NCBI RefSeq assembly: GCF_001571385.1
Contig: NZ_BCNW01000001.1
Span: 2,177,470-2,209,469, forward strand
Origin: Methanofollis ethanolicus
GTDB taxonomy: Archaea; Halobacteriota; Methanomicrobia; Methanomicrobiales; Methanofollaceae
DNA: 32,000 nucleotides
Direction: 5' to 3'
The notes beneath the pieces are model-generated. The model did not search any database, had not been told where the DNA came from, and saw only the letters and a list, made by a program, of their open reading frames with translations. Below are positions 9,730-25,011 of the stretch, in pieces (the first letter of the stretch is position 1; each line of letters begins with the position of its first letter). The position numbers were made by a program, and so were the translations under genes.

Positions 9730-10755
9730 ATGAGAATGGCAAAAGGGGACGTCGCCATATTTATCGCGCTCCTTCTCACCGCAGGGCTCTTCTGGGCGGC
9801 CGACAGGCTCTACCCCGACCTGCTCCTGGAAAGGATCACGCTCACCGTCTTCGCCGTCGCCGTTATCTATTTCCTCCTCAGGCCCGGCGCCGAGAGGGTG
9901 CTGACCAGGGCGGTCGGGTCTGAGATGGCACGCTACTCGGTGAGGAAGGCGGTGTCCATCATTTCCCTCGTCCTGATCCTCGCGGTGGTGATCAGGATCT
10001 GGGTCGAAGACCCCCGGACCCTCCTTCTCTCGTACGGGATCATCGCCGCCGGCCTTGCCATCGCCCTCCAGGACGTCTTCAAGGACTTTGTCGGGAGCCT
10101 GGTCATCCTTGTCGCCCGGCCCTTCGGCATCGGCGACAGGGTCGAGATAGAGGGGCATGCCGGGGACGTGATCGATATCGGCCTCCTGAACACCGTGCTG
10201 ATGGAGATCGGCGGGTGGGTCTCGGGCGACCAGCCGAACGGCCGCATCACCTCTGTCCCGAACAGCGCCATCATCTCCGGGGCGGTGAGCAACTATACCC
10301 GTGACTTCACCTTCCTCTGGGACGAGGTCACGGTGCCGGTCGCCTACGGGGGCGACTGGAAGGAGGCGGCAGAGACATTTCTCGCCATCGCACGGGAGGA
10401 GACGGAAGAGGCGGTCCGTGCGGCCGGGCAGGAGATCGACCGGATCAGGCAGGAGTATTACCTCACCAGGAGGAGCGTCGAGCCGATGGCCTTCGTCGCT
10501 CTCACCGACAACTGGGTCGGGGTGACGGTCAGGTACATCGCCCCGGTGATGGAGAGGCGGGCCGTGAAGGACAGGATCAGCCGTGCGGTCCTTGCGGCGG
10601 CAGAGGCGTCGGAGAGTTTCAGGGTCGCAAGCGCCACCCTGGAGATCGGCGGGGCCCTCGCGGTCGGGTCACAACCTATATCTACCCGGATGCCGACCGG
10701 CAGGCCGGGGGAGAGAGAGGATGGACCTGGGAACCGCCGTCCCGCAGGGGAATGA
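9730..10755 (+). CDS. Mechanosensitive ion channel, MscS family
   Basis: 341 aa with N-terminal TM helices. 'GLAIALQDVFKDFVGSLVILVARPFGIGDRVEIEGHAGDVIDIGLLNT' is the MscS TM3 plus beta-domain signature. The start could be ATG 9730 or 9736, with GGAGG at 9721-9725. Confidence 0.88.
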   Translation: MRMAKGDVAIFIALLLTAGLFWAADRLYPDLLLERITLTVFAVAVIYFLLRPGAERVLTRAVGSEMARYSVRKAVSIISLVLILAVVIRIWVEDPRTLLLSYGIIAAGLAIALQDVFKDFVGSLVILVARPFGIGDRVEIEGHAGDVIDIGLLNTVLMEIGGWVSGDQPNGRITSVPNSAIISGAVSNYTRDFTFLWDEVTVPVAYGGDWKEAAETFLAIAREETEEAVRAAGQEIDRIRQEYYLTRRSVEPMAFVALTDNWVGVTVRYIAPVMERRAVKDRISRAVLAAAEASESFRVASATLEIGGALAVGSQPISTRMPTGRPGEREDGPGNRRPAGE

Positions 10756-12742
10756 AAGGCTGGAGAGAGAGATGGACGGGCTGGAGGGGGAGGCCGCCTA
10801 TGCGGAGACGGCCTATGCCCTGCCGGTGAGTTATGCCCTGACGGGTCTCCGGGTGGCGACGGCCGACGGGGCGCGGAAGGCGTACCTGGCGTCGGGGAAA
10901 AACCCGCTCGTTGCCGCGGAGTGCGTCCGGGCGTTTGTCGGCGGCGGTGTTGAGGAGGCGCCGTACACCGGATTCCTCGGCGACACCGAACTGCGGCGTC
11001 TCGGCTATTCCCTGGTGGACGGGAGCATCCTCGGCCTCGCCCTCCTTGTCGGGACGCCGGAAAACGCCGACGCCGCCGCGGCGGTCTGCCGGGAACTGCA
11101 GGAGACGTACATGCTCACCTTTCTTGCCGGCGGGGTGACGGAGGTGCTCACGGCGGCGGGCGTGAAGGTGGGGCCGGGCTACCGCCTCATCCCCCTCGGG
11201 CCGGGCGGGATGGCGGCCGTCCACGTCGCCGACGTCCTCGCACGGGTGGCGATGATGTTCGGCGGGGTGCAGGCCGGCGACGCCGGACGTCTCCTCGCCT
11301 ATGCACGGGAGAGGGCGAAGGCCTTCGTCGTCGCCTTCCCCGGCCTTTCGGAGGAGGAGGTGGCGGTCCTCGACGCCCTCAGGCCGCTCGGCGTCCCTGT
11401 CCTCTCTGTCGGCGGCTACGAAGGGGGCGAGTGGGTGCCGGTCGGGGCCGACGAGGCGGTCGGCCGCGGCAGAGACCTGCGGGAGATCAGGGTGAAGGTG
11501 ACGGCGATCCCGATCCCGATGGCCTGCTCCCCGGCCTTCGAGGGGAAGAGCATCAGGAAAGAGGAGATGCACGTCGAGTTCGGCGGCGGGCGGACCCCGG
11601 CCTTCGAACTCCTCCGGATGCGGCCGGCCGCGGAAGTGGAGGACGGGAAGGTGACGGTGACCGGGCCGGAGGCCGACGCCGTCGCCGAGGGGTCGGCCCT
11701 CCCCCTCGCCATCATCGTGGACGTCGCCGGGAAGAGGATGAAGAAGGAGTACGAACCGGTGCTGGAGAGGCGGGTCCACACCTTCCTCAACTACGGCGAG
11801 GGGTCCTGGCACGTCGCCCAGCGCGACCTCATCTGGGTCCGCCTCTCGAAGGAGGCGGTGGCGAAGGGTGTGCGGGTGCGCCACCTCGGCACCCTCCTTG
11901 CCGGTCGGTTCAGGGCCGACTTCCCCGACCTCATCGACGCCGTGGCGGTGACCCTGATCACCGACGGGGACGCCGTCCGCGCCGCCCGCACCGGGGCCGA
12001 GGAGGTCTACCGGCAGAGGGACGAGCGGATCGCGGGGATGAAGGACGAGGACGCCGCCCTCTTCTACTCCTGCACCCTCTGCCAGACCTTCGCCCCGAAC
12101 CATGTCTGCGTCATCACGCCCGAGCGCCCGGCCCTCTGCGGGGCGATCACCTGGCTGGACGCCCAGATCGCCCACGAGATCGCACCGGCGGGCGCGAACC
12201 AGCCCGTGGAGAAGGGGGAGGTCGTCGACGACCTCACGGGCGAGTTCGCCGGGGTGAACAGGTTCGTGAAGAAGGCCTCGCACGGGACGGTGGAGAGGGT
12301 CTGCCTGTACGGGATGATGGAGTACCCGATGACGGCCTGCGGGTGTTTCGAGGCGGTGGCGGCGGTGCTCCCGGAGACGAACGGGGTGGTGATCGTCACC
12401 AGGGAGTACAGGGGCGAGACGCCCCTCGGCATGACCTTCTCCACCCTGGCCGGGACGATCGGCGGCGGGGCACAGACGCCGGGTTTCCTCGGGATCTCCA
12501 GGAACTATATCCTCTCGGACCGCTTCCTCAGGGCCGAGGGGGGTATCGCACGGGTGGTCTGGATGCCCTCCCAACTGAAGGAGGAACTGGGGGAGAGACT
12601 GCGGGGGGTGCTCGCCGCACGCGGCATGCCCGACCTCTTCGAGAGGATCGCGGACGAGAGGACGGCGACGACCCTGGAGGACCTCGTCGCCTTCCTGGAG
12701 ACACACGGCCACCCGGCACTGGAGATGGACCCGATCATCTGA
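10721..12742 (+). CDS. acsB: Acetyl-CoA synthase catalytic subunit (A-cluster), bacterial AcsB-type with N-terminal domain
   Basis: 673 aa from ATG 10721, with a purine-rich gggggagagagagagg run directly upstream; the ORF opens at 10583. 'SCTLCQTFAPNHVCVITPERPALCGAITWLDA' supplies the [4Fe-4S] Cys ligands and 'TACGCFE' is the Cys-Gly-Cys Ni-Ni site. C-terminus 'HGHPALEMDPII'. The N-terminal ~260 aa ('YAETAYALPVSYALTG', 'YTGFLGDTELRRLGYSLVD') resemble the N-terminal domain of Moorella-type AcsB as I recall it. Confidence 0.93.
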   Translation: MDLGTAVPQGNERLEREMDGLEGEAAYAETAYALPVSYALTGLRVATADGARKAYLASGKNPLVAAECVRAFVGGGVEEAPYTGFLGDTELRRLGYSLVDGSILGLALLVGTPENADAAAAVCRELQETYMLTFLAGGVTEVLTAAGVKVGPGYRLIPLGPGGMAAVHVADVLARVAMMFGGVQAGDAGRLLAYARERAKAFVVAFPGLSEEEVAVLDALRPLGVPVLSVGGYEGGEWVPVGADEAVGRGRDLREIRVKVTAIPIPMACSPAFEGKSIRKEEMHVEFGGGRTPAFELLRMRPAAEVEDGKVTVTGPEADAVAEGSALPLAIIVDVAGKRMKKEYEPVLERRVHTFLNYGEGSWHVAQRDLIWVRLSKEAVAKGVRVRHLGTLLAGRFRADFPDLIDAVAVTLITDGDAVRAARTGAEEVYRQRDERIAGMKDEDAALFYSCTLCQTFAPNHVCVITPERPALCGAITWLDAQIAHEIAPAGANQPVEKGEVVDDLTGEFAGVNRFVKKASHGTVERVCLYGMMEYPMTACGCFEAVAAVLPETNGVVIVTREYRGETPLGMTFSTLAGTIGGGAQTPGFLGISRNYILSDRFLRAEGGIARVVWMPSQLKEELGERLRGVLAARGMPDLFERIADERTATTLEDLVAFLETHGHPALEMDPII

Positions 12743-12754
12743 GGGGAGGGACGA

Positions 12755-13672
12755 ATGACAGAGAGGATCACCGAGGTGGCAATCGGCGCCACCAGGGCTG
12801 AAGGAGGGACGAGGACGAGGTCGTACAGGGTCGGTGGGGCGTCGGCCCTCCCCGACATGGGCGACGCGGGGGCGAGGCCTCTTGTCGCCCTGGAGATCTG
12901 CGACGACCCGGCCCTCTGGCCGGCGGTCGTGCTGGACGAGGTCGGTGACCTCGCTGGCGACCTCGCCGGGTGGGCGAAGGCCGCGGAGGAGAGGTGGGGT
13001 GCCGACCTGGTCCGCCTCGTGCTGACGAGCACGCGGCGGCGGGGTTTCGACGACCCCGCGTCGGCAGGGAGAGCGGTCGAGGAGGTGCTCGCCGCCACAG
13101 GACTCCCCCTCATCGTCGAAGGGAGCATCGATCCCGCCCTGGACACCGGGGTCTTCAGGCGGTGCGGGGAGGCGGGCGAGGGGGAGAGACTCCTTCTCGG
13201 CACGGCCGAGGCCGAGAGGTACCGCTCGGTCGCGGCCGCCGCCCTTGCCTACGGCCACGCCGTCGTCGCCCAGACCCCGATCGACATCAATCTCGCAAAA
13301 CAGCTGAACATCCTCCTGCGGGAGACGGGGGTGCCGCACGACCGGATCGTCATCGACCCGTACACTGGCGCCCTGGGCTACGGCTTCGAGTACTCCTACT
13401 CGGTGATGGAGCGGGTCCGCACCGCCGCCCTCGCGGGCGACGCCGACCTTGCGATGCCGATGATCAGCGCCGCACAGGACTCCCTCACGGTGAAGGAGGT
13501 GCGGGAGGCCCCTGAGGAGGAGAGGGCGGAGACCGCCGTGCAGTGGGAGTTCTATGCCGCCTTCGCCGCGGCGGTGGCAGGCGCCGGGATCGTCTGCGTC
13601 CGCCACCCCCGCACCGTCGGGGTGCTCAGAGAGGCGATCGCCGACCTGTGGGGGGGAGAGGGATGGCGATGA
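12755..13672 (+). CDS. acsD: Corrinoid iron-sulfur protein small subunit (AcsD / CdhD-like, short bacterial-size form)
   Basis: 305 aa. 'INLAKQLNILLRETGVPHDRIVIDPYTGALGYGFEYSYSVMERVR' matches the TIM-barrel delta/small subunit. A GGGGAGGG run lies a few nt upstream of the ATG. Confidence 0.9.
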   Translation: MTERITEVAIGATRAEGGTRTRSYRVGGASALPDMGDAGARPLVALEICDDPALWPAVVLDEVGDLAGDLAGWAKAAEERWGADLVRLVLTSTRRRGFDDPASAGRAVEEVLAATGLPLIVEGSIDPALDTGVFRRCGEAGEGERLLLGTAEAERYRSVAAAALAYGHAVVAQTPIDINLAKQLNILLRETGVPHDRIVIDPYTGALGYGFEYSYSVMERVRTAALAGDADLAMPMISAAQDSLTVKEVREAPEEERAETAVQWEFYAAFAAAVAGAGIVCVRHPRTVGVLREAIADLWGGEGWR

Positions 13673-14988
13673 AGGCGCTCGAGGTCTACAAACTCCTGCC
13701 GAAGACCAACTGCAAGGAGTGCGGGTTCCCGACCTGCCTCGCCTTCGCGATGAAACTCGCCGCCGGGGGCGTCGAACCCGAACGCTGCCCGTACCTCGAC
13801 GAGGAGACGAAGGCCCTCCTCGGCGGGGCGACCAGGCCGCCGGTGCGAGCGGCGACGGTCGGCGTCGGCGCCCGCTCCTTCACCGTCGGAGAGGAGATCG
13901 TGATGTACAGGCACGAGAAGACCTTCTACCACCGTCCCGGCATCATGGTCTGCGCCGGCGACACCTCGCCGCTGGAAGGGATCAGGGCGACCGCCGGGGA
14001 GGTCCGCGACCTCGTCGTCCACCGGGTCGGGCAGGACCTGACCCTCGACGGCATCGCGATACGGTGCGAGAGCGGGGACCCGGACCGCTTTGCCGCGGCC
14101 TCCATGGCCGTCGGGGAGTGCGGCGACCTCCCCCGTCTCCTCATCGCGGCAGACCCCGACGCCCACGCGGCGGCCCTCCGGGTCTGCGGCCAGTTCCTGC
14201 CCCTCATCCACGCCGCGACCGCGGAGAACCACGCGGAGATGGCGGCCCTCGCGAAGCGCTACGGGTGCCCCCTCGTCGTGCGGGCGGAAACCCCGGAGGA
14301 ACTCGCCGACCTCGCCGCGGCATGCACCGCCGCCGGCGCCAGGTCCATCCTCCTGGACCCCGCCCCGCGGACGATGGGGGACTTCGTGGCGCGGGCATCG
14401 CACCTGCGGGAGCACGCGGTGACGAGGGCGTCGCCCGACCTCGGGTATCCCCTCTATCTCGACACCGTGACCCTCGGCACCGACGCAGCGCTCGCCGCCG
14501 GCATCCTCAGGTACGCCGGGGTCATCGCCGTCCCGCCCCTGCCGCGGCCCTCCCTCCTCGCCGCCCTCACCCTCCGCCAGAACATCTACACCGACCCGCA
14601 GAAGCCCATCCAGGTGACGCCCGGCATCTACCCGGTGAACAATCCGGGCAGGGACGCACCCGTCCTCCTCTCGGTGAACTTCTCCCTCACCTACTTCACC
14701 CTCCTCGGCTACCTGGAGGCCGGGAAGGTCCCCTGCTATCTCTTTGTCGTGGACACCGCGGGACTCTCCGTCTTGACGGCGGTCGCCGGCGGGAAACTCG
14801 ACGAAGACGTGGTGAAAAAGTCGATCGAGGCCATGGGCCTCGCCGGGACCGTGGACCACCGCACCATCGTCATCCCCGGCTACGCGGCACCCCTCTCCGG
14901 GAGGATAGAGGAGGCGACAGGGTGGAAGGTGCGTGTCGGGCCGCGCGACGCCGCGGAGATCGCAGAGTTCCTGGAGAAGGAGGGGTAG
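13663..14988 (+). CDS. acsC: Corrinoid iron-sulfur protein large subunit (AcsC / CdhE gamma)
   Basis: 441 aa from 'MAMKALEVYKLLPKTNCKECGFPTCLAFAMKLAAGGVEPERCPY', which carries the Cx2Cx4Cx16C [4Fe-4S] motif. The start overlaps the acsD stop; ATG 13669, in an ATGA overlap, is an alternative. Confidence 0.92.
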   Translation: MAMKALEVYKLLPKTNCKECGFPTCLAFAMKLAAGGVEPERCPYLDEETKALLGGATRPPVRAATVGVGARSFTVGEEIVMYRHEKTFYHRPGIMVCAGDTSPLEGIRATAGEVRDLVVHRVGQDLTLDGIAIRCESGDPDRFAAASMAVGECGDLPRLLIAADPDAHAAALRVCGQFLPLIHAATAENHAEMAALAKRYGCPLVVRAETPEELADLAAACTAAGARSILLDPAPRTMGDFVARASHLREHAVTRASPDLGYPLYLDTVTLGTDAALAAGILRYAGVIAVPPLPRPSLLAALTLRQNIYTDPQKPIQVTPGIYPVNNPGRDAPVLLSVNFSLTYFTLLGYLEAGKVPCYLFVVDTAGLSVLTAVAGGKLDEDVVKKSIEAMGLAGTVDHRTIVIPGYAAPLSGRIEEATGWKVRVGPRDAAEIAEFLEKEG

Positions 14989-16905
14989 ATGCCGGTCGTT
15001 ACCTTCCTGCCGGGTTATCGGAAGGCCCGGGTCCCGCAGGGCGCCACTGTCCTGGAGGCGGCGCAGAAGGCCGGCCTCGTGATGAACGTCGTCTGCGGCG
15101 GGCAGGGGAAGTGCGGCAAGTGCATCGTCCGCGTCGAGAGCGGGGAGACGACCTTCGACCGGGAGAAGTTCGGCGTCCTTTTTGCGGCCGCGGAACTGGA
15201 TGCGGGCGCCTGTCTCGCCTGCCAGACCCGCGTCTTCAGCGACGCCCGCATCGAGGTCCCGGCGCGGACATTGGTGCAGGAGCAGAAGATCCTGGTCGAC
15301 GCCCGACCCCTCGACGTCCCCCTCCACCCGTCGGTGCGGAAGTACGCCCTCGCTCTCTCGCCGCCGACTCTCGACGACCCCTCCTCAGACCTCGCACGTT
15401 TGCTCGACGGGGTGGAGAACACCGGAGGACCTGCGGCGGCGAAGGTCTACGCGCCCCTGGACGTGCTCAGGAAGATCCCTATCGTCCTCCGCCACGGCAG
15501 GTGGCGGTGCACGGCGACGGTCGCCCTGGTGCCCGGCGGGTACCGCCTGATCAACGTAGAGGAGGGGGACACGGCGGCGCGGCTGTACGGGGCGGCGGTG
15601 GACCTCGGGACGACGACGGTCGTCGCCTACCTCTGGGACCTCGCCGGGGGCCGCGTCCTCTCGACGGCCTCGAACTACAACAGGCAGATCTCCTGCGGCG
15701 AGGACATCCTCTCCCGCGTGAACTATGCGAAGAAGAACGGCACCGGCCACCTCCAGGAGCTCGCCGCGGTGAGCATCAACACCGCCCTCACCGCGGCGGC
15801 CGACGCCGCAGGGATCGACCTGGAGGACATCTACGAGGTGATGGTCGCCGGGAACACGGTGATGACCCACCTCCTCCTCGGCATCGACCCGGCCTACATG
15901 ATCGCCGAACCGTACGTCCCTGTCGTCAGGCGGACGTTCTCGACGACGGGGCAGCGCCTCGGCCTCTCCGTCGCCCCGACGGCCGGGGTCTTCACCTTCC
16001 CCGCGGTCTCGAACTTCATCGGCGGCGACATCGTCGCCGACATCCTCACCTCGGGGATGGCCGATGAGGACGAGGTCTCCCTCCTCATCGACATCGGCAC
16101 CAACTTCGAGGCGGTCCTCGGCGGGCGGGACTGGATGCTCGCCTGCGCCGGGGCGGCCGGACCGGCCCTGGAGGGCGGGGAGGTGCTCTTCGGGATGCGG
16201 GCGAACCCGGGGGCGATCGAGAGGGTGCGGATCGACGAGGCGACCCTCGAACCCGCCTTCGAGACGATCAACGAAGTCCCGCCCGTCGGTATCTGCGGGT
16301 CGGGTCTGATCGACCTCCTCGCGGGCCTGATCCGCGCCTGCGTCATCGACAGGACAGGGCAGATCAACACCGCCATCGACCACCCGCGGATACGCATGGG
16401 CCGCCATTTCCCCGAGTACGTCGTCGCATGGGAGAAAGAGAGCGGGGCGGGGAAAGATATCGTGATCACCGGGCACGACATCAGGAACCTGATCCTGAGC
16501 AAGGCGGCGGTGCTGGCGGCCTGCATCACCCTGATGGACGCGGCAGGCATCGCCCACGACGACCTCGCCACCGTCTTCTTCTCCGGGGCCTTCGGGAACT
16601 ATATCGACAAGGAGAACGCCGTCACCATCGGCCTCATCCCGGAGGTGCCCCTGGAGAGGGTGCGGAACCTGGGGAACGGGGCGGTCACCGGGGCGAACCA
16701 GGCCCTCGTCAGTCGGGAGAGGAGGAATGCCCTCGACCGGATCGCACGGACGATCACCTATATCGAACTGAACGCTGACCCGGGGTTCATGGACAGGTAC
16801 ACGCAGAGTTGTTTCCTCCCGCACACCGACCTCTCCCTCTTCCCGACGGTGCAGAAAGTCCTCGACGAGTGCAGACTGCGGAGAGGGGCGCAATGGCAGG
16901 GGTGA
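14989..16905 (+). CDS. RACo-type reductive activase of corrinoid proteins (N-terminal plant-type 2Fe-2S ferredoxin + ASKHA ATPase, COG3894/DUF4445-like)
   Basis: 638 aa. N-terminal 'CGGQGKCGKC...CLACQ' is a 2Fe-2S ferredoxin motif. 'VDLGTTTVVA', 'VAGNTVMTHLLLG', 'IDIGTNFE', 'GAAGPALEGG' and 'GICGSGLIDL' match ASKHA activase motifs. The ATG immediately follows the acsC stop. Confidence 0.88.
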   Translation: MPVVTFLPGYRKARVPQGATVLEAAQKAGLVMNVVCGGQGKCGKCIVRVESGETTFDREKFGVLFAAAELDAGACLACQTRVFSDARIEVPARTLVQEQKILVDARPLDVPLHPSVRKYALALSPPTLDDPSSDLARLLDGVENTGGPAAAKVYAPLDVLRKIPIVLRHGRWRCTATVALVPGGYRLINVEEGDTAARLYGAAVDLGTTTVVAYLWDLAGGRVLSTASNYNRQISCGEDILSRVNYAKKNGTGHLQELAAVSINTALTAAADAAGIDLEDIYEVMVAGNTVMTHLLLGIDPAYMIAEPYVPVVRRTFSTTGQRLGLSVAPTAGVFTFPAVSNFIGGDIVADILTSGMADEDEVSLLIDIGTNFEAVLGGRDWMLACAGAAGPALEGGEVLFGMRANPGAIERVRIDEATLEPAFETINEVPPVGICGSGLIDLLAGLIRACVIDRTGQINTAIDHPRIRMGRHFPEYVVAWEKESGAGKDIVITGHDIRNLILSKAAVLAACITLMDAAGIAHDDLATVFFSGAFGNYIDKENAVTIGLIPEVPLERVRNLGNGAVTGANQALVSRERRNALDRIARTITYIELNADPGFMDRYTQSCFLPHTDLSLFPTVQKVLDECRLRRGAQWQG

Positions 16906-17915
16906 TCCCCGCGGCGGGCCTGCGGGCGACCGGGGTCGGCGCCCTGCCGCACCGCGACCCGGACGCCGCATGCCGGGCGGTCCTCGCCGCATTCCCCGAG
17001 GTGCCGTACGCCCCGACCCTCCCGAACAGGAACCCCCTGGAAGCGATCGTCCTCGCGGAGGCCGGGTGTCTGCCCGGCGCGGAGGTCCGCGACGGGAAAG
17101 TGGTCGTCGACACGGGTGCCGACGAAGCGATGGAAAGGGTCTTCATGGACTACCTGGAGGGGCGGTATGCCGGGTACGCCGCGTCGGCGGCCACGGCCTC
17201 GGGTTTCCACCGCCTGATGACATACGACCTCTCCGGCGCCGTCCTCCTGAAGTGCCAGGTCACCGGCCCGGCGACTCTCGGGATGCAGGCGGTGGACAGA
17301 GGTCGGCGGCCCGTCCACTATGACGGGGCGTACGCCGACGTTCTCGGGAAGGCGCTCGCCCTGCGGGCGCGGTGGTCCGAGGCACGGATGCGGGAGCACG
17401 GGGTGCCGACCGTCGTGGTGCTGAACGAGCCCTACCTCACCGCCCTGGGGTCGCCTGTCGTCCCCCTGGACGAGGAGACGGTCAGTTCCTCCTTCGCCGA
17501 CATCGCCGCCCTCCTCGACGGGGGCATCGGTATCCACTGCTGCGCGAACACGGACTGGGGCTTCGTCTTCTCCCTCTCCCCGTCCCTCGTCTCCTTCGAC
17601 GCCCACGCCCATGCCCGCGAGTTCCTCCTGTACGGGGACGACCTTGCGGCGTACCTCGAAGGGGGCGGGGTCGTGGCATGGGGGATGATACCGGCCGACA
17701 GGCCTGCCCCTGACGCTGCGGAACTCGGCCGCATCCACGAGCGCTTCGCCGCGATCAGGCGGGCGGTGGAGGATCTGGTCGGCGACGAGACCTTTGTCGA
17801 CCGCTCCCTGGTCACGCCGACCTGCGGGATCAGGGCAACGGACGAGGCCGGGGCAGGGGCGGTCATGGCGGCGGCGGCGGCGGTCGCGAGACGGGCGCGG
17901 GGTGAGAGAACATGA
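16893..17915 (+). CDS. MetE C-terminal / URO-D-like TIM-barrel protein, probable Zn-dependent methyltransferase (not AcsE-like)
   Basis: 340 aa. 'ATGVGALPHRDP' near the N-terminus, 'GIHCCANTDW' (His-x-Cys) and 'VTPTCGI' (distal Cys) resemble the zinc/thiol-activating motifs of cobalamin-independent methionine synthase and MtaA-type enzymes. GGAGAGGGG lies upstream. 13-nt overlap with the RACo gene and an ATGA overlap with cooC. The family call is by motif only. Confidence 0.55.
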   Translation: MAGVIPAAGLRATGVGALPHRDPDAACRAVLAAFPEVPYAPTLPNRNPLEAIVLAEAGCLPGAEVRDGKVVVDTGADEAMERVFMDYLEGRYAGYAASAATASGFHRLMTYDLSGAVLLKCQVTGPATLGMQAVDRGRRPVHYDGAYADVLGKALALRARWSEARMREHGVPTVVVLNEPYLTALGSPVVPLDEETVSSSFADIAALLDGGIGIHCCANTDWGFVFSLSPSLVSFDAHAHAREFLLYGDDLAAYLEGGGVVAWGMIPADRPAPDAAELGRIHERFAAIRRAVEDLVGDETFVDRSLVTPTCGIRATDEAGAGAVMAAAAAVARRARGERT

Positions 17916-18670
17916 AGCCCTGCACCGTGGCGGTCGCCGGGAAAGGGGGGACAGGGAAGACGACGATCGCCGCCCTCCTGGTGGACGCCCTCGTCGCCGC
18001 CGGCGTGCGCCCTGTCCTCGCGGTGGACGCGGACCCGAACGCCAACCTCCACGAGGCGATGGGGGTCGCCGTCGACGAAACTCTCGGCACGATGCGGGAG
18101 GAGGCGTTCACCCGCGGCATCCCGCCGGGGATGGACAGGCGGGCCTACATCGGTTACCGCTTCAGGAAGGTGCTCGTCGAGGCCGGGGGCTTCGACCTCC
18201 TGGCGATGGGGAGGCCTGAAGGGACGGGGTGCTACTGTTTCGCAAACGACCTCCTCCGCGAGTGCGTCGACTCGCTGGTGCAGGACTACAGGTGCGTGGT
18301 CGTCGATGCCGAGGCCGGGATGGAGCACGTCTCCCGCGGCACCGTCGGGGCGCCCGACGTCCTCCTCGTCGTCTCCGATCCCTCGGCCCGCGGCCTGCGG
18401 ACTGCCCTGCGGATCCGGGACCTCGCCGTCTCCCTCGGCCTTGACGAGGGGCGGATCTTCCTTGTCGTCAACCGCTCGAAAGGGGAGGCGGTGGCGGACG
18501 TACCTCTCCCCCTCGCCGCCGTGGTCCCGTACGACCCGGCAGTCGAGGAGGCCGACGTCGCGGGCCGCCCGGTCATCTCCGTCCCGCCGGGGAGTCCGGC
18601 GAGGGCGGCGGTGGAGGGGCTTCGCCGGTGGGTGATATCCTATACTGCTGTCCGGCCTCCCTCCAGATAG
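17912..18670 (+). CDS. cooC: CooC/AcsF-type Ni-insertion accessory ATPase
   Basis: 252 aa. Deviant Walker A 'AGKGGTGKTT', 'GCYCF' CxC metal-binding motif and 'VVVDAEAGMEH'. Confidence 0.9.
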   Translation: MKPCTVAVAGKGGTGKTTIAALLVDALVAAGVRPVLAVDADPNANLHEAMGVAVDETLGTMREEAFTRGIPPGMDRRAYIGYRFRKVLVEAGGFDLLAMGRPEGTGCYCFANDLLRECVDSLVQDYRCVVVDAEAGMEHVSRGTVGAPDVLLVVSDPSARGLRTALRIRDLAVSLGLDEGRIFLVVNRSKGEAVADVPLPLAAVVPYDPAVEEADVAGRPVISVPPGSPARAAVEGLRRWVISYTAVRPPSR

Positions 18671-18703
18671 GGAAGAGATGAGAGAGATTTCAAAATAACG
18701 GAT

Positions 18704-19060
18704 GAGCATATCCCGGAAATCTCATCCACTCCCCCCATCTCTGCATGCAGGGATCGGGAGAAAAGATCCTGATCGGGTCGATGTCTTCCCGAATTCCCTG
18801 AAGAATCGTGCGAAACCACCGCCTTCCCCTACCTTTCTGCCGGGGGACTGACGCCCCCGGACCCCTTAAACAGGATAGGGTCGGGGAAGAGAGACCGGAG
18901 ATCCTGATGAAGGAGATTGCCATCCGCCCCCCATCGCAATGATGGGGGGACCGGGGGGTGAAACCCCCCGGAACAGACACGAGATCAGGATTTTTTCAGA
19001 ACCAGATACCGATCATTCCATCGACAGGACAGAGGGCATGATCACTTTTGGGATGACCTC
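18704..19060 (+). repeat. Composite intergenic element, copy B (complete, without insertions)
   Basis: Colinear with 21213-21719. Module order: left module with ctgcatgcag palindrome; G5ACT hairpin 18840-18860; 'caggatagggtcggggaagagagaccggagatcctgatgaagga'; hairpin 1 18927-18949; hairpin 2 18951-18971; right module ending tgggatgacctc. Confidence 0.85.
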
Positions 19061-19160
19061 GATCTGTAGAATCGGGCATGAGTCCCCGGGGACTCAGGCA
19101 TACGCGATGAAAATTGTTCTTTGTGGTCTGCTGGTCAACGTGCCTTCCTTTACGCTCGCG

Positions 19161-19205
19161 CCGGGGGACTACCTCGAAGACCTTCGGTCTTCTCGTTGCC
19201 CCCAG
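19161..19205 (+). repeat. 'Filled' G5ACT...C5 hairpin carrying a GAAGACC-ttc-GGTCTTC unit
   Basis: The sequence is ccgggggactacctcGAAGACCttcGGTCTTCtcgttgccccc. It has the same flanks as the empty site at 18840-18860. Confidence 0.75.
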
Positions 19206-19480
19206 ACCCCCGCAGTGCGATAGGGCCAGGAAGGCAGATGCGGAGATTCCATCTTTGAAAGGAGATGTTCGATGAAAATCAGAGTCCCGTGCATCCCCGG
19301 CATGAGGGGTCGGTGAGATCACATCCTCACACAAACCCGGAGAGTCGTTCCTCGGGATCATTTTCAGGGTAAATCCTTTGGATTACTCTCTTTGAGGGGT
19401 TGGCCGCCCTCGAGTCAGGACCGAGCAGGAGACAGAAATACTCTCATTCGATCTTCGATATGGCCTTCCCGGCCCAATCC

Positions 19481-19512
19481 TATGATGGGGGTCCGGGGGT
19501 CGCAACCCCCGG
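19481..19512 (+). repeat. Diverged copy of hairpin-2 module
   Basis: 'tatgatgggggtCCGGGGGTcgcaACCCCCGG' parallels 'caatgatggggggaCCGGGGGGTgaaACCCCCCGG'. Confidence 0.7.
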
Positions 19513-19605
19513 CGCGAAGATAGGGGAAGGCGAGTGATCAGAGGAGCACTCTAACAAAAGCAGGAGAGTTTGGCTTTGTAGAAACTCTCATGATGTATCT
19601 TTGTG

Positions 19606-19626
19606 CCGGGGGCTGGCCGCCCCCGG
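19606..19626 (+). repeat. 'Empty' G5...C5 hairpin
   Basis: The sequence is ccgggggctggccgcccccgg followed by 'acccc', like 18840-18865 (ccgggggactgacgcccccggacccc). Confidence 0.7.
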
Positions 19627-19823
19627 ACCCCGGCCATTAGGAGAGGCGGAGGATGGCAAAACCCTCTCTGGACCTCCTGTTCGCTCTTGTCGGGACAGGA
19701 CCCTTAAGGATCCGGGAGGTGAACCTGGCGGTCAGAGGAGGACGGGCACGGAGCACTGACCATGAAATATGAATGCCTGCGCCAGTGTCCCGCAGCAAGG
19801 ATCCGCCACCCCGACGCACACCC

Positions 19824-19831
19824 CTTTTATC
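19824..19831 (+). promoter_or_regulatory. Putative TATA box of purB (leaderless mRNA)
   Basis: cTTTTATc is centred ~27 nt upstream of ATG 19855. No Shine-Dalgarno-like sequence lies in between. Confidence 0.4.
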
Positions 19832-19854
19832 GCCAGGCGTCCACACTATTCCCC

Positions 19855-21195
19855 ATGGCGATCCACCCGATAGACTACCGGTACGGCACTCCGGAGATGA
19901 AGGCCGTCTGGGGCGAAGAGAACCGGTTCAGGTGCATAGTGGCGGCGGAGGTCGCGCTCGCGCAGGCCGAGGCGGCGTGCGGCGTCATCCCGGCCGACGC
20001 CGCGGCGACGATCAAGGAGTGCGCGGGGAAGGCAACCCTCGCGCGGGCGAACGAGATCGAGGCCGAGATCAACCACGACATGATGGCCGTCGTCAAGGCC
20101 GTCACCGAGGTCTGCGGCGACGCCGGGCGCTGGATCCACTTCGGCGCCACCTCGAACGACATGCTGGACACCGCCACCGGCCTCCAGATGAAGGCGGCGA
20201 TGGACCTGATCGAGGAGAAACTCCAGCGGCTCCTCGCGGTCCTCCTCCGCCGCGCCGGGGAGACGAAGAACCTCGTCTGCGTGGCCCGCACCCACGGCCA
20301 GCACGGCGTGCCGACGACGTACGGCCTGCGGTTTGCGATCTGGGCGAGCGAGGTGGGGCGGCACATCGAGCGCCTCCGCGAGATGCGGCCCAGAGTTGCG
20401 GTCGGTCAACTCACCGGCGCCGTCGGGACGCAGGCGGCCCTGGGCATGAAGGGGCTTGAGGTCCAGCCCGCGATGATGGAGTACCTCGGACTCACCGCAG
20501 TCGACGTCTCGAACCAGGTGATCGCCCGCGACCGGTACGCGGAGTACGTCCTCTTCCTGGCGAACATGGCAACGACCCTGGACAAGATCGGGGTCGAGGT
20601 CCGCTCCCTCCAGAGGACAGAGATCGCCGAGGTCGAGGAGGCCTTCGGCAAGAACCAGGTCGGGTCCTCGACGATGCCCCACAAGAGGAACCCGATCAAG
20701 AGCGAGCAGGTCTGCGGCCTCGCCCGTATCGTCCGCTCGATGGTCGAACCCGCCCTCCAGGACAACACCCTCTGGGACGAGCGCGACCTCACCAACTCCT
20801 CCTGCGAGAGGGTGGTCTTCCCCGAGGCCTCGGTCCTTGCGGACCACATCCTCAATGTGATGACCCGCGTCCTCGACCGCCTGAACATCAGGGAAGAGAA
20901 CATCAGGAAGAACCTCGACCTCCTCCACGGCGTGAACCTGGCCGAGTCGGTGATGATCGAACTGACGAAGAGGGGGATGGGCAGGCAGGACGCCCACGAG
21001 GCCGTCCGCGTGGCGAGCATGACCGCCCTCGCGGAGAAGAGGAGCATCGCCGGCGTCCTCGAAGAGGACCCGAAGGTCGCGGCCGTCCTCTCCTCCGAGG
21101 AGATCGCCGTCCTTCTCAACCCGGACAACTACATCGGCACCGCGGTCGAGCAGGTCGACCTGGTCATTGCAAAACTCAGGCCCCTCTCGGCCTGA
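19855..21195 (+). CDS. purB: Adenylosuccinate lyase
   Basis: 446 aa from 'MAIHPIDYRYGTPEMKAVWGEENRF'. Fumarate-lyase signature 'GSSTMPHKRNP'. The ORF opens at 19762, but the upstream residues are not PurB-like. Confidence 0.93.
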   Translation: MAIHPIDYRYGTPEMKAVWGEENRFRCIVAAEVALAQAEAACGVIPADAAATIKECAGKATLARANEIEAEINHDMMAVVKAVTEVCGDAGRWIHFGATSNDMLDTATGLQMKAAMDLIEEKLQRLLAVLLRRAGETKNLVCVARTHGQHGVPTTYGLRFAIWASEVGRHIERLREMRPRVAVGQLTGAVGTQAALGMKGLEVQPAMMEYLGLTAVDVSNQVIARDRYAEYVLFLANMATTLDKIGVEVRSLQRTEIAEVEEAFGKNQVGSSTMPHKRNPIKSEQVCGLARIVRSMVEPALQDNTLWDERDLTNSSCERVVFPEASVLADHILNVMTRVLDRLNIREENIRKNLDLLHGVNLAESVMIELTKRGMGRQDAHEAVRVASMTALAEKRSIAGVLEEDPKVAAVLSSEEIAVLLNPDNYIGTAVEQVDLVIAKLRPLSA

Positions 21196-24708: not shown

Positions 24709-24745
24709 AATCCTTCGCATCGTCCCGCCCATTCTTTTACGGGCA

Positions 24746-24775
24746 CAAACTGATTTTTTTATAATGATCAGTTTG
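24746..24775 (-). promoter_or_regulatory. Promoter of surface-protein gene 1: TATA box (minus strand cattataaaaaaa) bracketed by a perfect 9-bp inverted repeat
   Basis: caaactgat (24746-24754) and atcagtttg (24767-24775) flank ttttttataatg. The site lies ~50 nt upstream of ATG 24708. Confidence 0.5.
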
Positions 24776-25011
24776 TATATCAAATCTGCGAAGTAAAAAT
24801 CATAATATGTGAGAACTGATATCTGCCCATTCGTGCAGGCCGGTTCCGGGGGGGCATGTGCGGGTTTTCTCTTTCATCCGGGAGAGGGGCGGACCGGACG
24901 AGGCGCCGGAGGCCTCGGAGACGGCGCGCACAGTGAAGACACCGCCATACCTGCATCGAAAAGGACGTATCATACCGAAAATTCGGTTCAGGAGTGATTC
25001 TCCAGATCCAG

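What the first reader, a model, noticed from the sequence alone, without database searches (positions are those of the whole stretch)
10721..18670. Bacterial-architecture acetyl-CoA synthase / CoFeSP operon with no CODH gene, in an archaeal neighbourhood
Six genes (acsB-acsD-acsC-RACo-methyltransferase-like-cooC) are joined by abutting or overlapping start/stop codons (13663/13672, 14988/14989, 16893/16905, 17912/17915), so they form one operon. The parts look bacterial rather than like the canonical archaeal cdhABCDE set. AcsB is 673 aa with an N-terminal domain, the delta-like subunit is only 305 aa, and the activase has an N-terminal 2Fe-2S domain. No CODH catalytic subunit (cdhA/acsA/cooS) or cdhB lies next to it. 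Upstream is an MscS channel gene and downstream is 1.2 kb of non-coding repeats followed by purB. The surrounding genes and signals are archaeal (XPD, PGF-type anchors, TATA/oligo-T). Three explanations are possible: (i) a laterally acquired ACS module working with a CODH encoded elsewhere; (ii) a CODH-independent ACS that cleaves acetyl-CoA to harvest methyl groups, as reported for the incomplete Wood-Ljungdahl pathway of Dehalococcoides mccartyi; (iii) an uncharacterised variant pathway.
Basis: partly seen in the sequence, partly recalled or inferred. Interest (0 to 1): 0.72.

Follow-up and report, generated by a model that had tools for sequence, protein, structure and literature searches.

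The report
CODH-less acetyl-CoA synthase/methionine synthase cassette
A Methanofollis methanogen carries a six-gene, bacterial-type acetyl-CoA synthase operon that has no CO dehydrogenase but does include a corrinoid-dependent methionine-synthase-like gene, a cassette shared by many Methanomicrobiales and partly described already, so it is real and interesting but not a new kind of system.

Summary
Six tightly coupled genes lie at 10721-18670: AcsB, AcsD, AcsC, RACo, a 340-aa protein and a CooC-like ATPase. AcsB is of the bacterial type, and the 32-kb window holds no CODH gene.

The unnamed "methyltransferase-like" gene is a MesB-type core methionine synthase. It has a MetE-like TIM barrel and an invariant His-x-Cys/Asp/Cys zinc site. 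Price et al. 2021 already reported mesB in an operon with acsCD in some methanogens.

The cassette is not a recent import. It keeps the same gene order in about 35 Methanomicrobiales loci, one bacterial locus (Deferrimicrobiaceae) and one locus from an uncultured archaeon. In Methanoculleus it sits at the same XPD...purB site. It is under purifying selection (dN/dS 0.10-0.18). It is missing as a clean 9-kb indel in Methanofollis tationis and M. fontis.

A stand-alone cooS-cooC pair is found across the order and lies elsewhere in Methanofollis genomes. It is next to the cassette in only 2 loci.

Best reading (about 0.5): acetyl-CoA is cleaved, the methyl group passes to CoFeSP, and MesB uses it to methylate homocysteine, as proposed for Dehalococcoides. 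CO would be removed by the separate CooS.

One new lead: the two homocysteine-binding residues are replaced (Ser to Ala, Asp to Asn) in most Methanomicrobiales copies.

Verdict: new member of a known kind, moderate interest.

The parts
10675..10684 (+). TATA-like box (CCTATATCTA) 37-46 nt upstream of the acsB start, followed by a purine-rich GGGGGAGAGAGAGG stretch. Putative cassette promoter, lying inside the 3' tail of the MscS ORF.
   Evidence: Read directly from the sequence. TTTAT(A/G) boxes lie at the same distance upstream of acsB in four Methanoculleus loci, L001, L003, L004 and L023. Function is inferred, not shown.
10721..12742 (+). acsB: bacterial-type acetyl-CoA synthase, 673 aa, with the N-terminal domain and all A-cluster ligands.
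   Evidence: NF040764 at 867 bits (cut-off 800), covering residues 10-673. Pfam CdhC plus ACS_CODH_B_C. PDB matches: C. hydrogenoformans and Moorella ACS at 580-599 bits, archaeal CdhC at 364 bits. The CxxC...C...C and CGC motifs align. The start codon is supported by conserved N-termini.
12755..13672 (+). acsD: small subunit of the corrinoid iron-sulfur protein (CoFeSP), 305 aa, short bacterial form.
   Evidence: NF003376 at 333 bits (cut-off 280); Pfam CdhD.
13663..14988 (+). acsC: large subunit of CoFeSP, 441 aa, with an N-terminal 4Fe-4S motif.
   Evidence: NF003195 at 505 bits (cut-off 306); Pfam FeS plus CdhD.
14989..16905 (+). RACo: ATP-dependent reductive activator of the corrinoid protein, 638 aa, with an N-terminal 2Fe-2S ferredoxin domain.
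   Evidence: Pfam Fer2, RACo_linker, Raco_middle and RACo_C_ter all match. NCBIfam AcsV scores 553 bits, below its exception cut-off of 800.
16893..17915 (+). MesB-like core methionine synthase homologue, 340 aa. It is a MetE-like TIM barrel with zinc ligands H215, C217, D236 and C311. The presumed substrate-binding residues are A17 and N178.
   Evidence: No Pfam, NCBIfam or PDB sequence hit. The AF2 model has pLDDT 90.3. Foldseek top hits are MetE, MesD, UROD and MtaA. Invariant residues are shown. It scores 190-226 bits against Dehalococcoidia MesB homologues. The family and its operon link are described in PMC7857596.
17912..18670 (+). CooC/AcsF-like P-loop nickel-insertion ATPase, 252 aa, with GKGGTGKT and CxC motifs. 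Presumed to mature the ACS A-cluster.
   Evidence: Pfam CbiA and AAA_31. It is only 35% identical to the CooC that sits next to cooS in M. tationis, so it is a distinct paralogue. Its role is inferred.
18671..19854 (.). Non-coding spacer with four GC-rich hairpin repeats (CCGGGGG-N6-8-CCCCCGG at 18840, 18951, 19493 and 19606). It ends at the conserved purB TATA box and the true purB start at 19855.
   Evidence: No Rfam family matched.
10666..19810 (.). Approximate extent of the ~9.1-kb segment (cassette plus spacer) that is absent between MscS and purB in Methanofollis tationis and M. fontis.
   Evidence: Gene maps of L083 and L084 and junction alignments A3 and A4.

Best explanation
The six genes form a self-contained methyl shuttle that works without a CO dehydrogenase.

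Proposed steps:
1. AcsB, a bacterial-type acetyl-CoA synthase, reversibly cleaves acetyl-CoA into CoA, CO and a methyl group.
2. The methyl group is passed to the cobalt of the AcsC/AcsD corrinoid iron-sulfur protein.
3. The MesB-like zinc enzyme takes the methyl from methyl-CoFeSP and puts it on a thiol. The most likely acceptor is homocysteine, giving methionine.
4. RACo re-reduces cobalt that has become inactive.
5. The CooC paralogue loads nickel into the ACS A-cluster.
6. The CO released is probably oxidised by a stand-alone CooS-CooC pair encoded elsewhere.

This is the route proposed for Dehalococcoides mccartyi, here packaged as one operon in a methanogen.

What is shown: the gene identities, the catalytic residues, the conservation, the synteny and the selection.

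What is inferred: the direction of the ACS reaction, the thiol substrate and the fate of the CO.
For: - All six genes are intact. They are translationally coupled and under purifying selection, with dN/dS 0.10-0.18 against 0.14 for purB.
- The A-cluster, CoFeSP and RACo metal motifs are present.
- The fifth gene has a MetE-like fold. Its His-x-Cys/Asp/Cys zinc site is invariant in 80 homologues.
- The fifth gene scores 190-226 bits against Dehalococcoidia MesB homologues.
- The gene order AcsB-AcsD-AcsC-RACo-MesB-CooC is conserved in every Methanomicrobiales locus long enough to show it. It also occurs in a Deferrimicrobiaceae bacterium (L080) and an uncultured archaeon (L067).
- None of these cassettes shows a match to anything beyond the six proteins. 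tblastn and motif scans find no CODH inside any of them. An AcsE-type methyltransferase was not specifically searched for.
- Literature: D. mccartyi core-MetE/MesB uses methylcobalamin, not methyl-THF. It is proposed to draw methyl from AcsCD after AcsB cleaves acetyl-CoA (PMC7005905).
- Literature: Price et al. note that mesB sits in an operon with acsCD in some methanogens, and predict CoFeSP as the methyl donor (PMC7857596).
- A CooS-CooC pair is available elsewhere in Methanofollis.
Against: - There are no biochemical or labelling data for any methanogen cassette.
- According to Price et al., most Methanomicrobiales also have MesA, which probably uses MtrA. The cassette therefore looks redundant for methionine synthesis. 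It is indeed dispensable in M. tationis and M. fontis.
- The two residues listed as homocysteine-binding are Ala17 and Asn178 here, not Ser and Asp. The same holds in most Methanomicrobiales copies. Homocysteine may therefore not be the substrate.
- AcsB keeps the N-terminal domain that contacts CODH in bacterial complexes.
- cooS lies about 2 kb downstream of the cassette in two Methanoregulaceae loci. A physical CODH/ACS complex is therefore not excluded.
Confidence: 0.5

Rival explanations
1. Split bacterial-type CODH/ACS working in the synthetic direction. CooS, encoded elsewhere or just downstream, supplies CO. An unidentified methyl-H4MPT:CoFeSP methyltransferase supplies the methyl group. 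AcsB then makes acetyl-CoA, and MesB merely taps the methyl-CoFeSP pool for methionine.
For: - AcsB keeps the full N-terminal domain.
- A CooS with a complete C-cluster is conserved across the order at about 70% identity.
- That CooS lies about 2 kb downstream of the cassette, with its own CooC, in L013 and L024.
- Methanofollis liminatans and M. tationis encode it.
Against: - No additional gene that could load methyl onto CoFeSP is conserved in any of about 38 cassettes (AcsE or MtrH homologues were not specifically searched for).
- CooS is adjacent in only 2 loci.
- CooS belongs to the stand-alone D. vulgaris E-2 group, not an ACS-linked group.
- M. tationis keeps cooS-cooC but has lost the cassette.
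- Methanomicrobiales that also encode a conventional CdhA, which is expected to support autotrophic acetyl-CoA synthesis, have it in an archaeal cdhABCDE cluster or listed as clade A-1 (M. hungatei, Methanoregula). M. hungatei itself still requires acetate.
Confidence: 0.2
2. The MesB-like enzyme of Methanoregulaceae and Methanomicrobiaceae has changed its thiol substrate, for example to coenzyme M or another small thiol. The cassette would then move the acetyl-CoA methyl group to a product other than methionine.
For: - The zinc site is strictly kept.
- The residue equivalent to MetE Ser433 is Ala or Gly in 32 of 39 Methanomicrobiales copies. The residue equivalent to Asp599 is Asn or Ser in 35 of 40.
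- All 40 bacterial and Methanomassiliicoccales homologues keep Asp, and 37 keep Ser.
- Basal Methanospirillaceae-like copies keep both residues.
- Glu243 is invariant only in Methanomicrobiales.
- These hosts usually already have MesA (PMC7857596).
Against: - Asn can still hydrogen-bond an amino group, and a backbone amide can still bind a carboxylate.
- Glu243 may compensate for the lost Asp.
- Price et al. accept a Gln-for-Glu replacement in MesA and MesC.
- No docking or assay was done.
- Methanomicrobiales are not known to make methane from acetate.
Confidence: 0.12
3. Recent lateral acquisition of a bacterial island, possibly non-functional in this host.
For: - G+C is 0.68-0.72 in the operon against about 0.60-0.66 in the flanks.
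- The cassette is an indel relative to M. tationis and M. fontis.
- A repeat-rich spacer lies at its 3' end.
Against: - Five Methanoculleus loci show the same gene order. Four have XPD upstream, and L001, L004 and L023 also have purB downstream.
- Identity to other Methanomicrobiales is 63-73% for AcsB.
- Identity to the bacterial cassette locus L080 and to C. hydrogenoformans ACS, the comparators tested, is only 47%.
- dN/dS is 0.10-0.18.
- An archaeal TATA-like box lies at a conserved distance upstream.
Confidence: 0.03
4. A split but conventional archaeal cdh system whose cdhA-cdhB pair lies elsewhere.
For: Some Methanomicrobiales do have archaeal CdhA. M. hungatei has it in a cdhABCDE cluster, and Methanoregula boonei and M. 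formicica have a clade A-1 CdhA.
Against: - AcsB, AcsD and RACo here are the bacterial forms.
- CdhC-type models match only residues 265-668.
- The Methanofollis entries recovered from the Inoue et al. tables (complete for M. liminatans) are CooS types, with no CdhA.
Confidence: 0.02

Closest known systems
Incomplete Wood-Ljungdahl pathway of Dehalococcoides mccartyi: AcsB plus AcsCD plus core-MetE/MesB (Zhuang et al. 2014, as cited in PMC7005905; Deobald et al. 2020)
   Same: - Bacterial-type AcsB, CoFeSP and a MesB-family zinc methyltransferase.
- No AcsE was detected.
- No CODH next to the acs genes.
- The proposed flow is acetyl-CoA to methyl-CoFeSP to methionine, with CO as by-product.
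   Different: - Here mesB is inside the acs operon. In D. mccartyi it sits with SAM-cycle genes.
- The host is a methanogen with H4MPT C1 chemistry and probably MesA.
- Congeners encode CooS-type CODHs, so CO need not be excreted.
- The homocysteine-binding Ser and Asp are replaced.
MesB family of folate-independent methionine synthases (Price, Deutschbauer and Arkin 2021, PMC7857596)
   Same: - Length of about 340 aa.
- The zinc ligands fall at almost the same positions (215/217/236/311 here, 214/216/235/311 in DET0516).
- It co-occurs with AcsC/AcsD. The authors already note an operon with acsCD in some methanogens.
   Different: - The window protein has Ala and Asn where the family has Ser and Asp.
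- The paper treats acsBCD as 'the Wood-Ljungdahl pathway' and does not discuss the missing CODH.
Bacterial CODH/ACS gene clusters of acetogens (Moorella thermoacetica, Carboxydothermus hydrogenoformans, Clostridium autoethanogenum)
   Same: - AcsB with the N-terminal domain. Identity to C. hydrogenoformans ACS is 47% overall and 54% outside the N-terminal domain.
- Short AcsD, AcsC, a RACo with a 2Fe-2S domain, and a CooC-type maturase.
   Different: - No acsA/cooS and no acsE in the cluster.
- A methionine-synthase-like gene sits between RACo and CooC.
- The promoter and the host are archaeal.
Archaeal acetyl-CoA decarbonylase/synthase (cdhABCDE) of Methanosarcina, Methanothrix and M. hungatei
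   Same: Homologous A-cluster domain and corrinoid protein, and the same chemistry at the acetyl C-C bond.
   Different: - CdhA and CdhB are absent.
- The beta subunit carries an extra N-terminal domain.
- The delta subunit is 305 aa, against about 430 aa.
- CdhC models match only residues 265-668.

Membership tests
Bacterial-type acetyl-CoA synthase (AcsB, NCBIfam NF040764) | Full-length match above the curated cut-off, including the N-terminal domain that archaeal CdhC lacks | tested here: met
   867 bits against a cut-off of 800, covering residues 10-673 of 673. Bacterial ACS structures score 580-599 bits; CdhC scores 364 bits over residues 265-667 only.
Bacterial-type acetyl-CoA synthase (AcsB, NCBIfam NF040764) | A-cluster ligands: four Cys for the 4Fe-4S cubane and Cys-Gly-Cys for the Ni-Ni site | tested here: met
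   SCTLCQTFAPNHVCVITPERPALCG and TACGCFE align with the same motifs of C. hydrogenoformans ACS.
Bacterial-type acetyl-CoA synthase (AcsB, NCBIfam NF040764) | Partner CODH (acsA) encoded in the same cluster | tested here: not met
   No CODH in the 32-kb window. Among the cassette loci, cooS is within 10 kb only in L013 and L024.
Corrinoid iron-sulfur protein (AcsC/AcsD) | Large subunit with an N-terminal 4Fe-4S motif plus a CdhD-type barrel, and a small subunit with a CdhD-type barrel, both above the curated cut-offs | tested here: met
   AcsC matches NF003195 at 505 bits (cut-off 306) and has PF04060. AcsD matches NF003376 at 333 bits (cut-off 280).
RACo / AcsV corrinoid activase | Architecture of 2Fe-2S ferredoxin, linker, middle and ASKHA C-terminal domains | tested here: met
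   All four Pfam domains match. The NCBIfam AcsV exception model scores 553 bits, below its 800 cut-off, so equivalog status is not reached.
MesB core methionine synthase (Price et al. 2021) | MetE-like catalytic barrel with His-x-Cys, Asp/Glu and Cys zinc ligands | tested here: met
   The AF2 model has pLDDT 90.3, and the Foldseek top hits are MetE and MesD. H215, C217, D236 and C311 are invariant.
MesB core methionine synthase (Price et al. 2021) | Sequence similarity to D. mccartyi DET0516 (at least 130-173 bits by phmmer) | tested here: inconclusive
   DET0516 itself was not retrieved. The window protein scores 190-226 bits against Dehalococcoidia and Dehalococcoidales homologues from genome contigs.
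MesB core methionine synthase (Price et al. 2021) | Homocysteine-binding residues equivalent to MetE Ser433 and Asp599 | tested here: not met
   The window has Ala17 and Asn178. All 40 bacterial and Methanomassiliicoccales homologues have Asp, and 37 have Ser. The equivalence rests on motif alignment (IGS / DEP), not on a solved complex.
MesB core methionine synthase (Price et al. 2021) | Occurs only in genomes with AcsC/AcsD | tested here: met
   It is encoded in the same operon as acsC and acsD.
MesB core methionine synthase (Price et al. 2021) | Methylcobamide:homocysteine methyltransferase activity | not testable with these tools
   Needs an enzyme assay.
Archaeal ACDS (cdhABCDE) | CdhA and CdhB present, short CdhC and long CdhD | tested here: not met
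   No cdhA or cdhB in the window. AcsB is 673 aa with an N-terminal domain, and AcsD is 305 aa.
Dehalococcoides-type CODH-free Wood-Ljungdahl remnant | No Ni-CODH anywhere in the genome, so CO is released | tested here: inconclusive
   The genome of this organism could not be searched. The congeners M. liminatans and M. tationis encode CooS-type CODHs, so this feature is probably not met.

The most novel reading that the evidence does not exclude
In Methanoregulaceae and Methanomicrobiaceae the MesB-like enzyme may have been retuned to a thiol other than homocysteine, for example coenzyme M. The evidence is that Ser is replaced by Ala or Gly and Asp by Asn or Ser at the substrate-binding positions, while the zinc site stays intact. 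If so, the cassette would be an Mtr-independent shortcut from the acetyl-CoA methyl group to methyl-CoM or another methylated thiol. That would be a hidden acetate-methyl route in methanogens regarded as strictly hydrogenotrophic.
Probability: 0.08. Interest if true: 0.85.

Novelty: new member of a known kind. Interest (0 to 1): 0.45.

Why it matters
Methanomicrobiales are major hydrogen- and formate-using methane producers, and at least some of them (M. hungatei) need acetate for growth.

A conserved, selected operon that couples acetyl-CoA cleavage directly to a methionine-synthase-like enzyme would show three things:
- The Dehalococcoides 'methyl harvest' is not an oddity of one bacterial genus. 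It is a portable module found in both domains.
- Presence of acsBCD should not be scored as 'Wood-Ljungdahl carbon fixation' in metabolic reconstructions of methanogen MAGs.
- CO may be an internal metabolite in these methanogens.

The presence/absence polymorphism within Methanofollis, and the altered substrate-binding residues, give direct handles for experiments.

Tried and rejected
- **Sequence searches on the 340-aa protein.** Pfam and NCBIfam gave nothing even at E = 10. A PDB profile search also gave nothing. Only structure prediction and a fold search revealed the MetE relationship.
- **Exact look-up of the 340-aa protein.** It is not on record.
- **Adam et al. 2018 (PNAS).** This paper on CODH/ACS evolution could not be read. 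What I recall of it, bacterial-type ACS in some archaea, is unverified.
- **Literature on Methanomicrobiales ACS.**
  - Anderson 2009 says ACDS is absent from M. marisnigri and M. labreanum.
  - Gunsalus 2016 calls the M. hungatei Cdh role undefined. That cluster turned out to be an archaeal cdhABCDE, not this cassette.
- **Labelled-acetate data for M. hungatei purines.** These are explained by the serine/folate route and say nothing about ACS.
- **Metaproteome and other papers.** They held nothing relevant. One hit was a false match to 'acsbiomedchemau'.
- **Rfam on the spacer.** No credible family.
- **Donor lineage.** C. hydrogenoformans ACS and the Deferrimicrobiaceae cassette are both only 47% identical to AcsB, so no donor can be named.
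- **ORFs inserted between acsC and RACo in some Methanoregula loci.** These are membrane-anchored proteins with no obvious link to the cassette.
- **Hypotheses considered and rejected.** MscS as part of the operon (other genes intervene in M. taiwanensis), recent HGT, and a pseudogenised relic.

Full report
**Observation**

The window has high G+C (0.59-0.72). Its purB is 95% identical to that of a Methanofollis MAG and 89% identical to those of M. tationis and M. liminatans, so the host is a Methanofollis species.

- AcsB 10721-12742
- AcsD 12755-13672
- AcsC 13663-14988
- RACo 14989-16905
- a 340-aa gene 16893-17915
- CooC 17912-18670

The junctions are a 12-nt gap, a 10-nt overlap, a direct abutment, a 13-nt overlap and a 4-nt overlap.

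Pfam and NCBIfam confirm five of the six:
- AcsB passes the equivalog model for the bacterial 'alpha/beta' ACS over its full length (867 bits, cut-off 800).
- AcsD fits the 313-position short delta model.
- AcsC carries the Fe-S motif.
- RACo has the 2Fe-2S, linker, middle and ASKHA domains.
- CooC is a CbiA-type P-loop protein with a CxC motif.

Against solved structures, AcsB scores 580-599 bits with C. hydrogenoformans and Moorella ACS. It scores 364 bits with Methanosarcina CdhC, and that match covers only residues 265-667. All A-cluster cysteines align.

The start at 10721 is supported by a conserved N-terminal pattern in about 35 homologues. A TATA-like box lies 37-46 nt upstream, where Methanoculleus relatives have TTTAT(A/G).

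The flanks are as described:
- XPD and MscS lie upstream.
- About 1.1-1.2 kb of hairpin-repeat DNA and then purB lie downstream.
- Two surface proteins have PGF-CTERM-like tails.

No CODH is present in the window, by Pfam scans, a motif scan or tblastn.

**The unnamed gene**

The 340-aa protein has no Pfam, NCBIfam or PDB sequence match, even at permissive thresholds. It nevertheless belongs to a large family:
- It matches 1447 clusters at 50% identity.
- Bacterial members are labelled 'methionine synthase' by their sources.

An AlphaFold model built on 22 homologues is confident (pLDDT 90.3, pTM 0.91). Its best structural neighbours are cobalamin-independent methionine synthases (MetE, and the MesD structure 3RPD), followed by UROD and MtaA.

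Alignments show an invariant His215-x-Cys217, Asp236 and Cys311. These sit in motifs that parallel the MetE motifs:
- HxC
- the strand-end acidic residue
- PxCG

This matches the MesB family of Price et al. 2021. In D. mccartyi DET0516 the zinc ligands are at 214/216/235/311. The window protein scores 190-226 bits against Dehalococcoidia homologues.

Three literature points bear on the gene:
- Deobald et al. 2020 showed that the D. mccartyi enzyme uses methylcobalamin and not methyl-THF.
- They also proposed that AcsB cleaves acetyl-CoA and that AcsCD hands the methyl group to the synthase.

**Distribution and history**

A scan of species-representative genomes with a MesB alignment returned 80 loci. 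tblastn with the window proteins gave these results:
- The order AcsB-AcsD-AcsC-RACo-MesB-CooC occurs in every Methanomicrobiales locus long enough to show it. The genera are Methanofollis, Methanoculleus, Methanoregula, Methanosphaerula, Methanolinea and Methanospirillaceae. AcsB identity to the window is 63-73%.
- The same order occurs in a Deferrimicrobiaceae bacterium (L080) and an uncultured archaeon (L067).
- A rearranged version occurs in Methanomassiliicoccales.
- Most bacterial mesB genes are not next to acs genes.

In Methanoculleus the cassette sits with XPD upstream in four loci (L003, L004, L007, L023), and with purB downstream in L001, L004 and L023, as in the window.

In M. tationis and M. 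fontis, MscS is followed directly by the conserved purB promoter. The cassette plus spacer (about 10666-19810) is therefore a 9.1-kb indel within the genus. Ancestral presence with later loss is the simpler reading.

Between the window and the closest MAG, all six genes have dN/dS of 0.10-0.18, like purB at 0.14. The cassette is functional and old, not a fresh import.

**Where is the CODH?**

Only two Methanoregulaceae loci (L013, L024) have a cooS within 10 kb. It lies about 2 kb downstream of the cassette and is followed by its own cooC.

That CooS family is conserved across Methanomicrobiales at about 70% identity. In M. tationis it is a cooS-cooC pair about 1.2 Mb from the purB locus.

The supplementary tables of Inoue et al. 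2019 list two CooS-type enzymes for M. liminatans. One is an HCP-like D-1 form. The other is an E-2 form next to cooC. E-2 is the group of the stand-alone D. vulgaris CooS.

The same tables show that the M. hungatei 'Cdh' is a conventional archaeal cdhABCDE-RACo cluster.

The CooC next to cooS and the CooC of the cassette are only 35% identical. This fits one maturase per nickel enzyme.

CODH is therefore available in the genus. It is not dedicated to the cassette, because M. tationis keeps it without the cassette.

**Mechanism**

The parts list is ACS, CoFeSP, its activase, an ACS-type nickel maturase and a zinc thiol methyltransferase. The cassette has no CODH, and no match to anything beyond these six proteins was seen. 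(An AcsE- or MtrH-type gene was not specifically searched for.)

This content fits best a reversible shuttle: acetyl-CoA <-> methyl-CoFeSP -> methylated thiol.

I commit to acetyl-CoA cleavage feeding homocysteine methylation, with CO oxidised by the separate CooS, at about 0.5 confidence. From general knowledge of the partial reactions, the sum should be roughly neutral to mildly favourable and pulled forward by CO oxidation. This is inference and was not computed here.

The main rival (0.2) is a split CODH/ACS that makes acetyl-CoA. It would need an unknown methyl-H4MPT:CoFeSP methyltransferase.

**New lead**

At the positions that Price et al. equate with the homocysteine-binding Ser433 and Asp599 of MetE, the window has Ala17 and Asn178. 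The pattern across homologues is:
- 32 of 39 Methanomicrobiales copies have Ala or Gly at position 17.
- 35 of 40 have Asn or Ser at position 178.
- All 40 bacterial and Methanomassiliicoccales homologues keep Asp, and 37 keep Ser.
- The basal Methanospirillaceae-like copies keep both residues.
- Glu243 is fixed only in Methanomicrobiales.

This could mean a changed substrate, compensation by Glu243, or drift. I could not decide between these.

**Comparison and verdict**

The system works like the Dehalococcoides incomplete Wood-Ljungdahl pathway. Its parts are members of known families: bacterial AcsB, CoFeSP, RACo and CooC. The fifth gene belongs to MesB by fold, zinc site and similarity, but not by the substrate-binding residues.

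The operon link was published in 2021. In the searchable open literature, only that paper connects AcsB with Methanomicrobiales.

What this analysis adds:
- The full six-gene cassette and its breadth.
- Its bacterial counterpart.
- The intragenus indel.
- The independence from CooS.
- The residue replacements.

I rate it a new member of a known kind, with interest 0.45.

Noticed in passing
window 18671-19854: The spacer between cooC and purB holds four copies of a GC-rich hairpin (CCGGGGG-N6-8-CCCCCGG at 18840, 18951, 19493 and 19606) and several longer inverted repeats. A T6 run at 18991-18996 follows one hairpin. No Rfam family matches. The closest MAG (L002) has only 415 nt here and shares the last copy.
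   Followed up: partly
window 19762-19857: The mechanical purB ORF starts at 19762, but the conserved start is 19855 (MAIHPIDYRYG). It lies just downstream of a TATA box, CCCCTTTTATCGCC, shared with M. fontis and the L002 MAG and present in variant form (CCTTTTTTACTGCC) in M. tationis.
   Followed up: yes
window 21739-24783 (-) and 25025-30583 (-): Two giant beta-helix/PKD surface-protein genes (1014 and 1852 aa) end in nearly the same 50 residues (49 of 50 identical). The tail includes a PLPFG-hydrophobic-RGRLG motif, a PGF-CTERM-like sorting signal. This suggests recent duplication or gene conversion of the anchor.
   Followed up: partly
window 10666-10755: The MscS ORF is 18-26 aa longer than in M. 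fontis and M. tationis. Its extra C-terminal tail reads through the cassette promoter and overlaps the acsB start by 35 nt. This marks the left edge of the 9-kb indel.
   Followed up: yes
L013 13878-16711 and L024 12871-14856: In two Methanoregulaceae MAGs a cooS gene lies about 2 kb downstream of the cassette. In L013 it is followed by its own cooC and a DUF2114 gene. These are the only loci where a CODH is near the cassette.
   Followed up: partly
L005 6768-7757, L006 6939-7949, L010 4835-5950: Some Methanoregulaceae cassettes (L005, L006, L010) carry an extra 330-370 aa ORF with an N-terminal membrane anchor, inserted between acsC and RACo. Its function is unknown.
   Followed up: no
L080 3852-11718 and L067 2512-10372: A Deferrimicrobiaceae bacterium and an uncultured archaeon have the same six-gene order. 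Identity to the window proteins is 37-49% for L080 and 29-42% for L067. No CODH lies within 10 kb. The cassette is therefore a module that occurs in both domains.
   Followed up: partly
window 10001-19000 versus flanks: The operon has a G+C of 0.68-0.72, about 5 points above the surrounding genes (0.59-0.67), despite its old age in the lineage. The cause is unexplained and could be codon usage or amino-acid composition.
   Followed up: no
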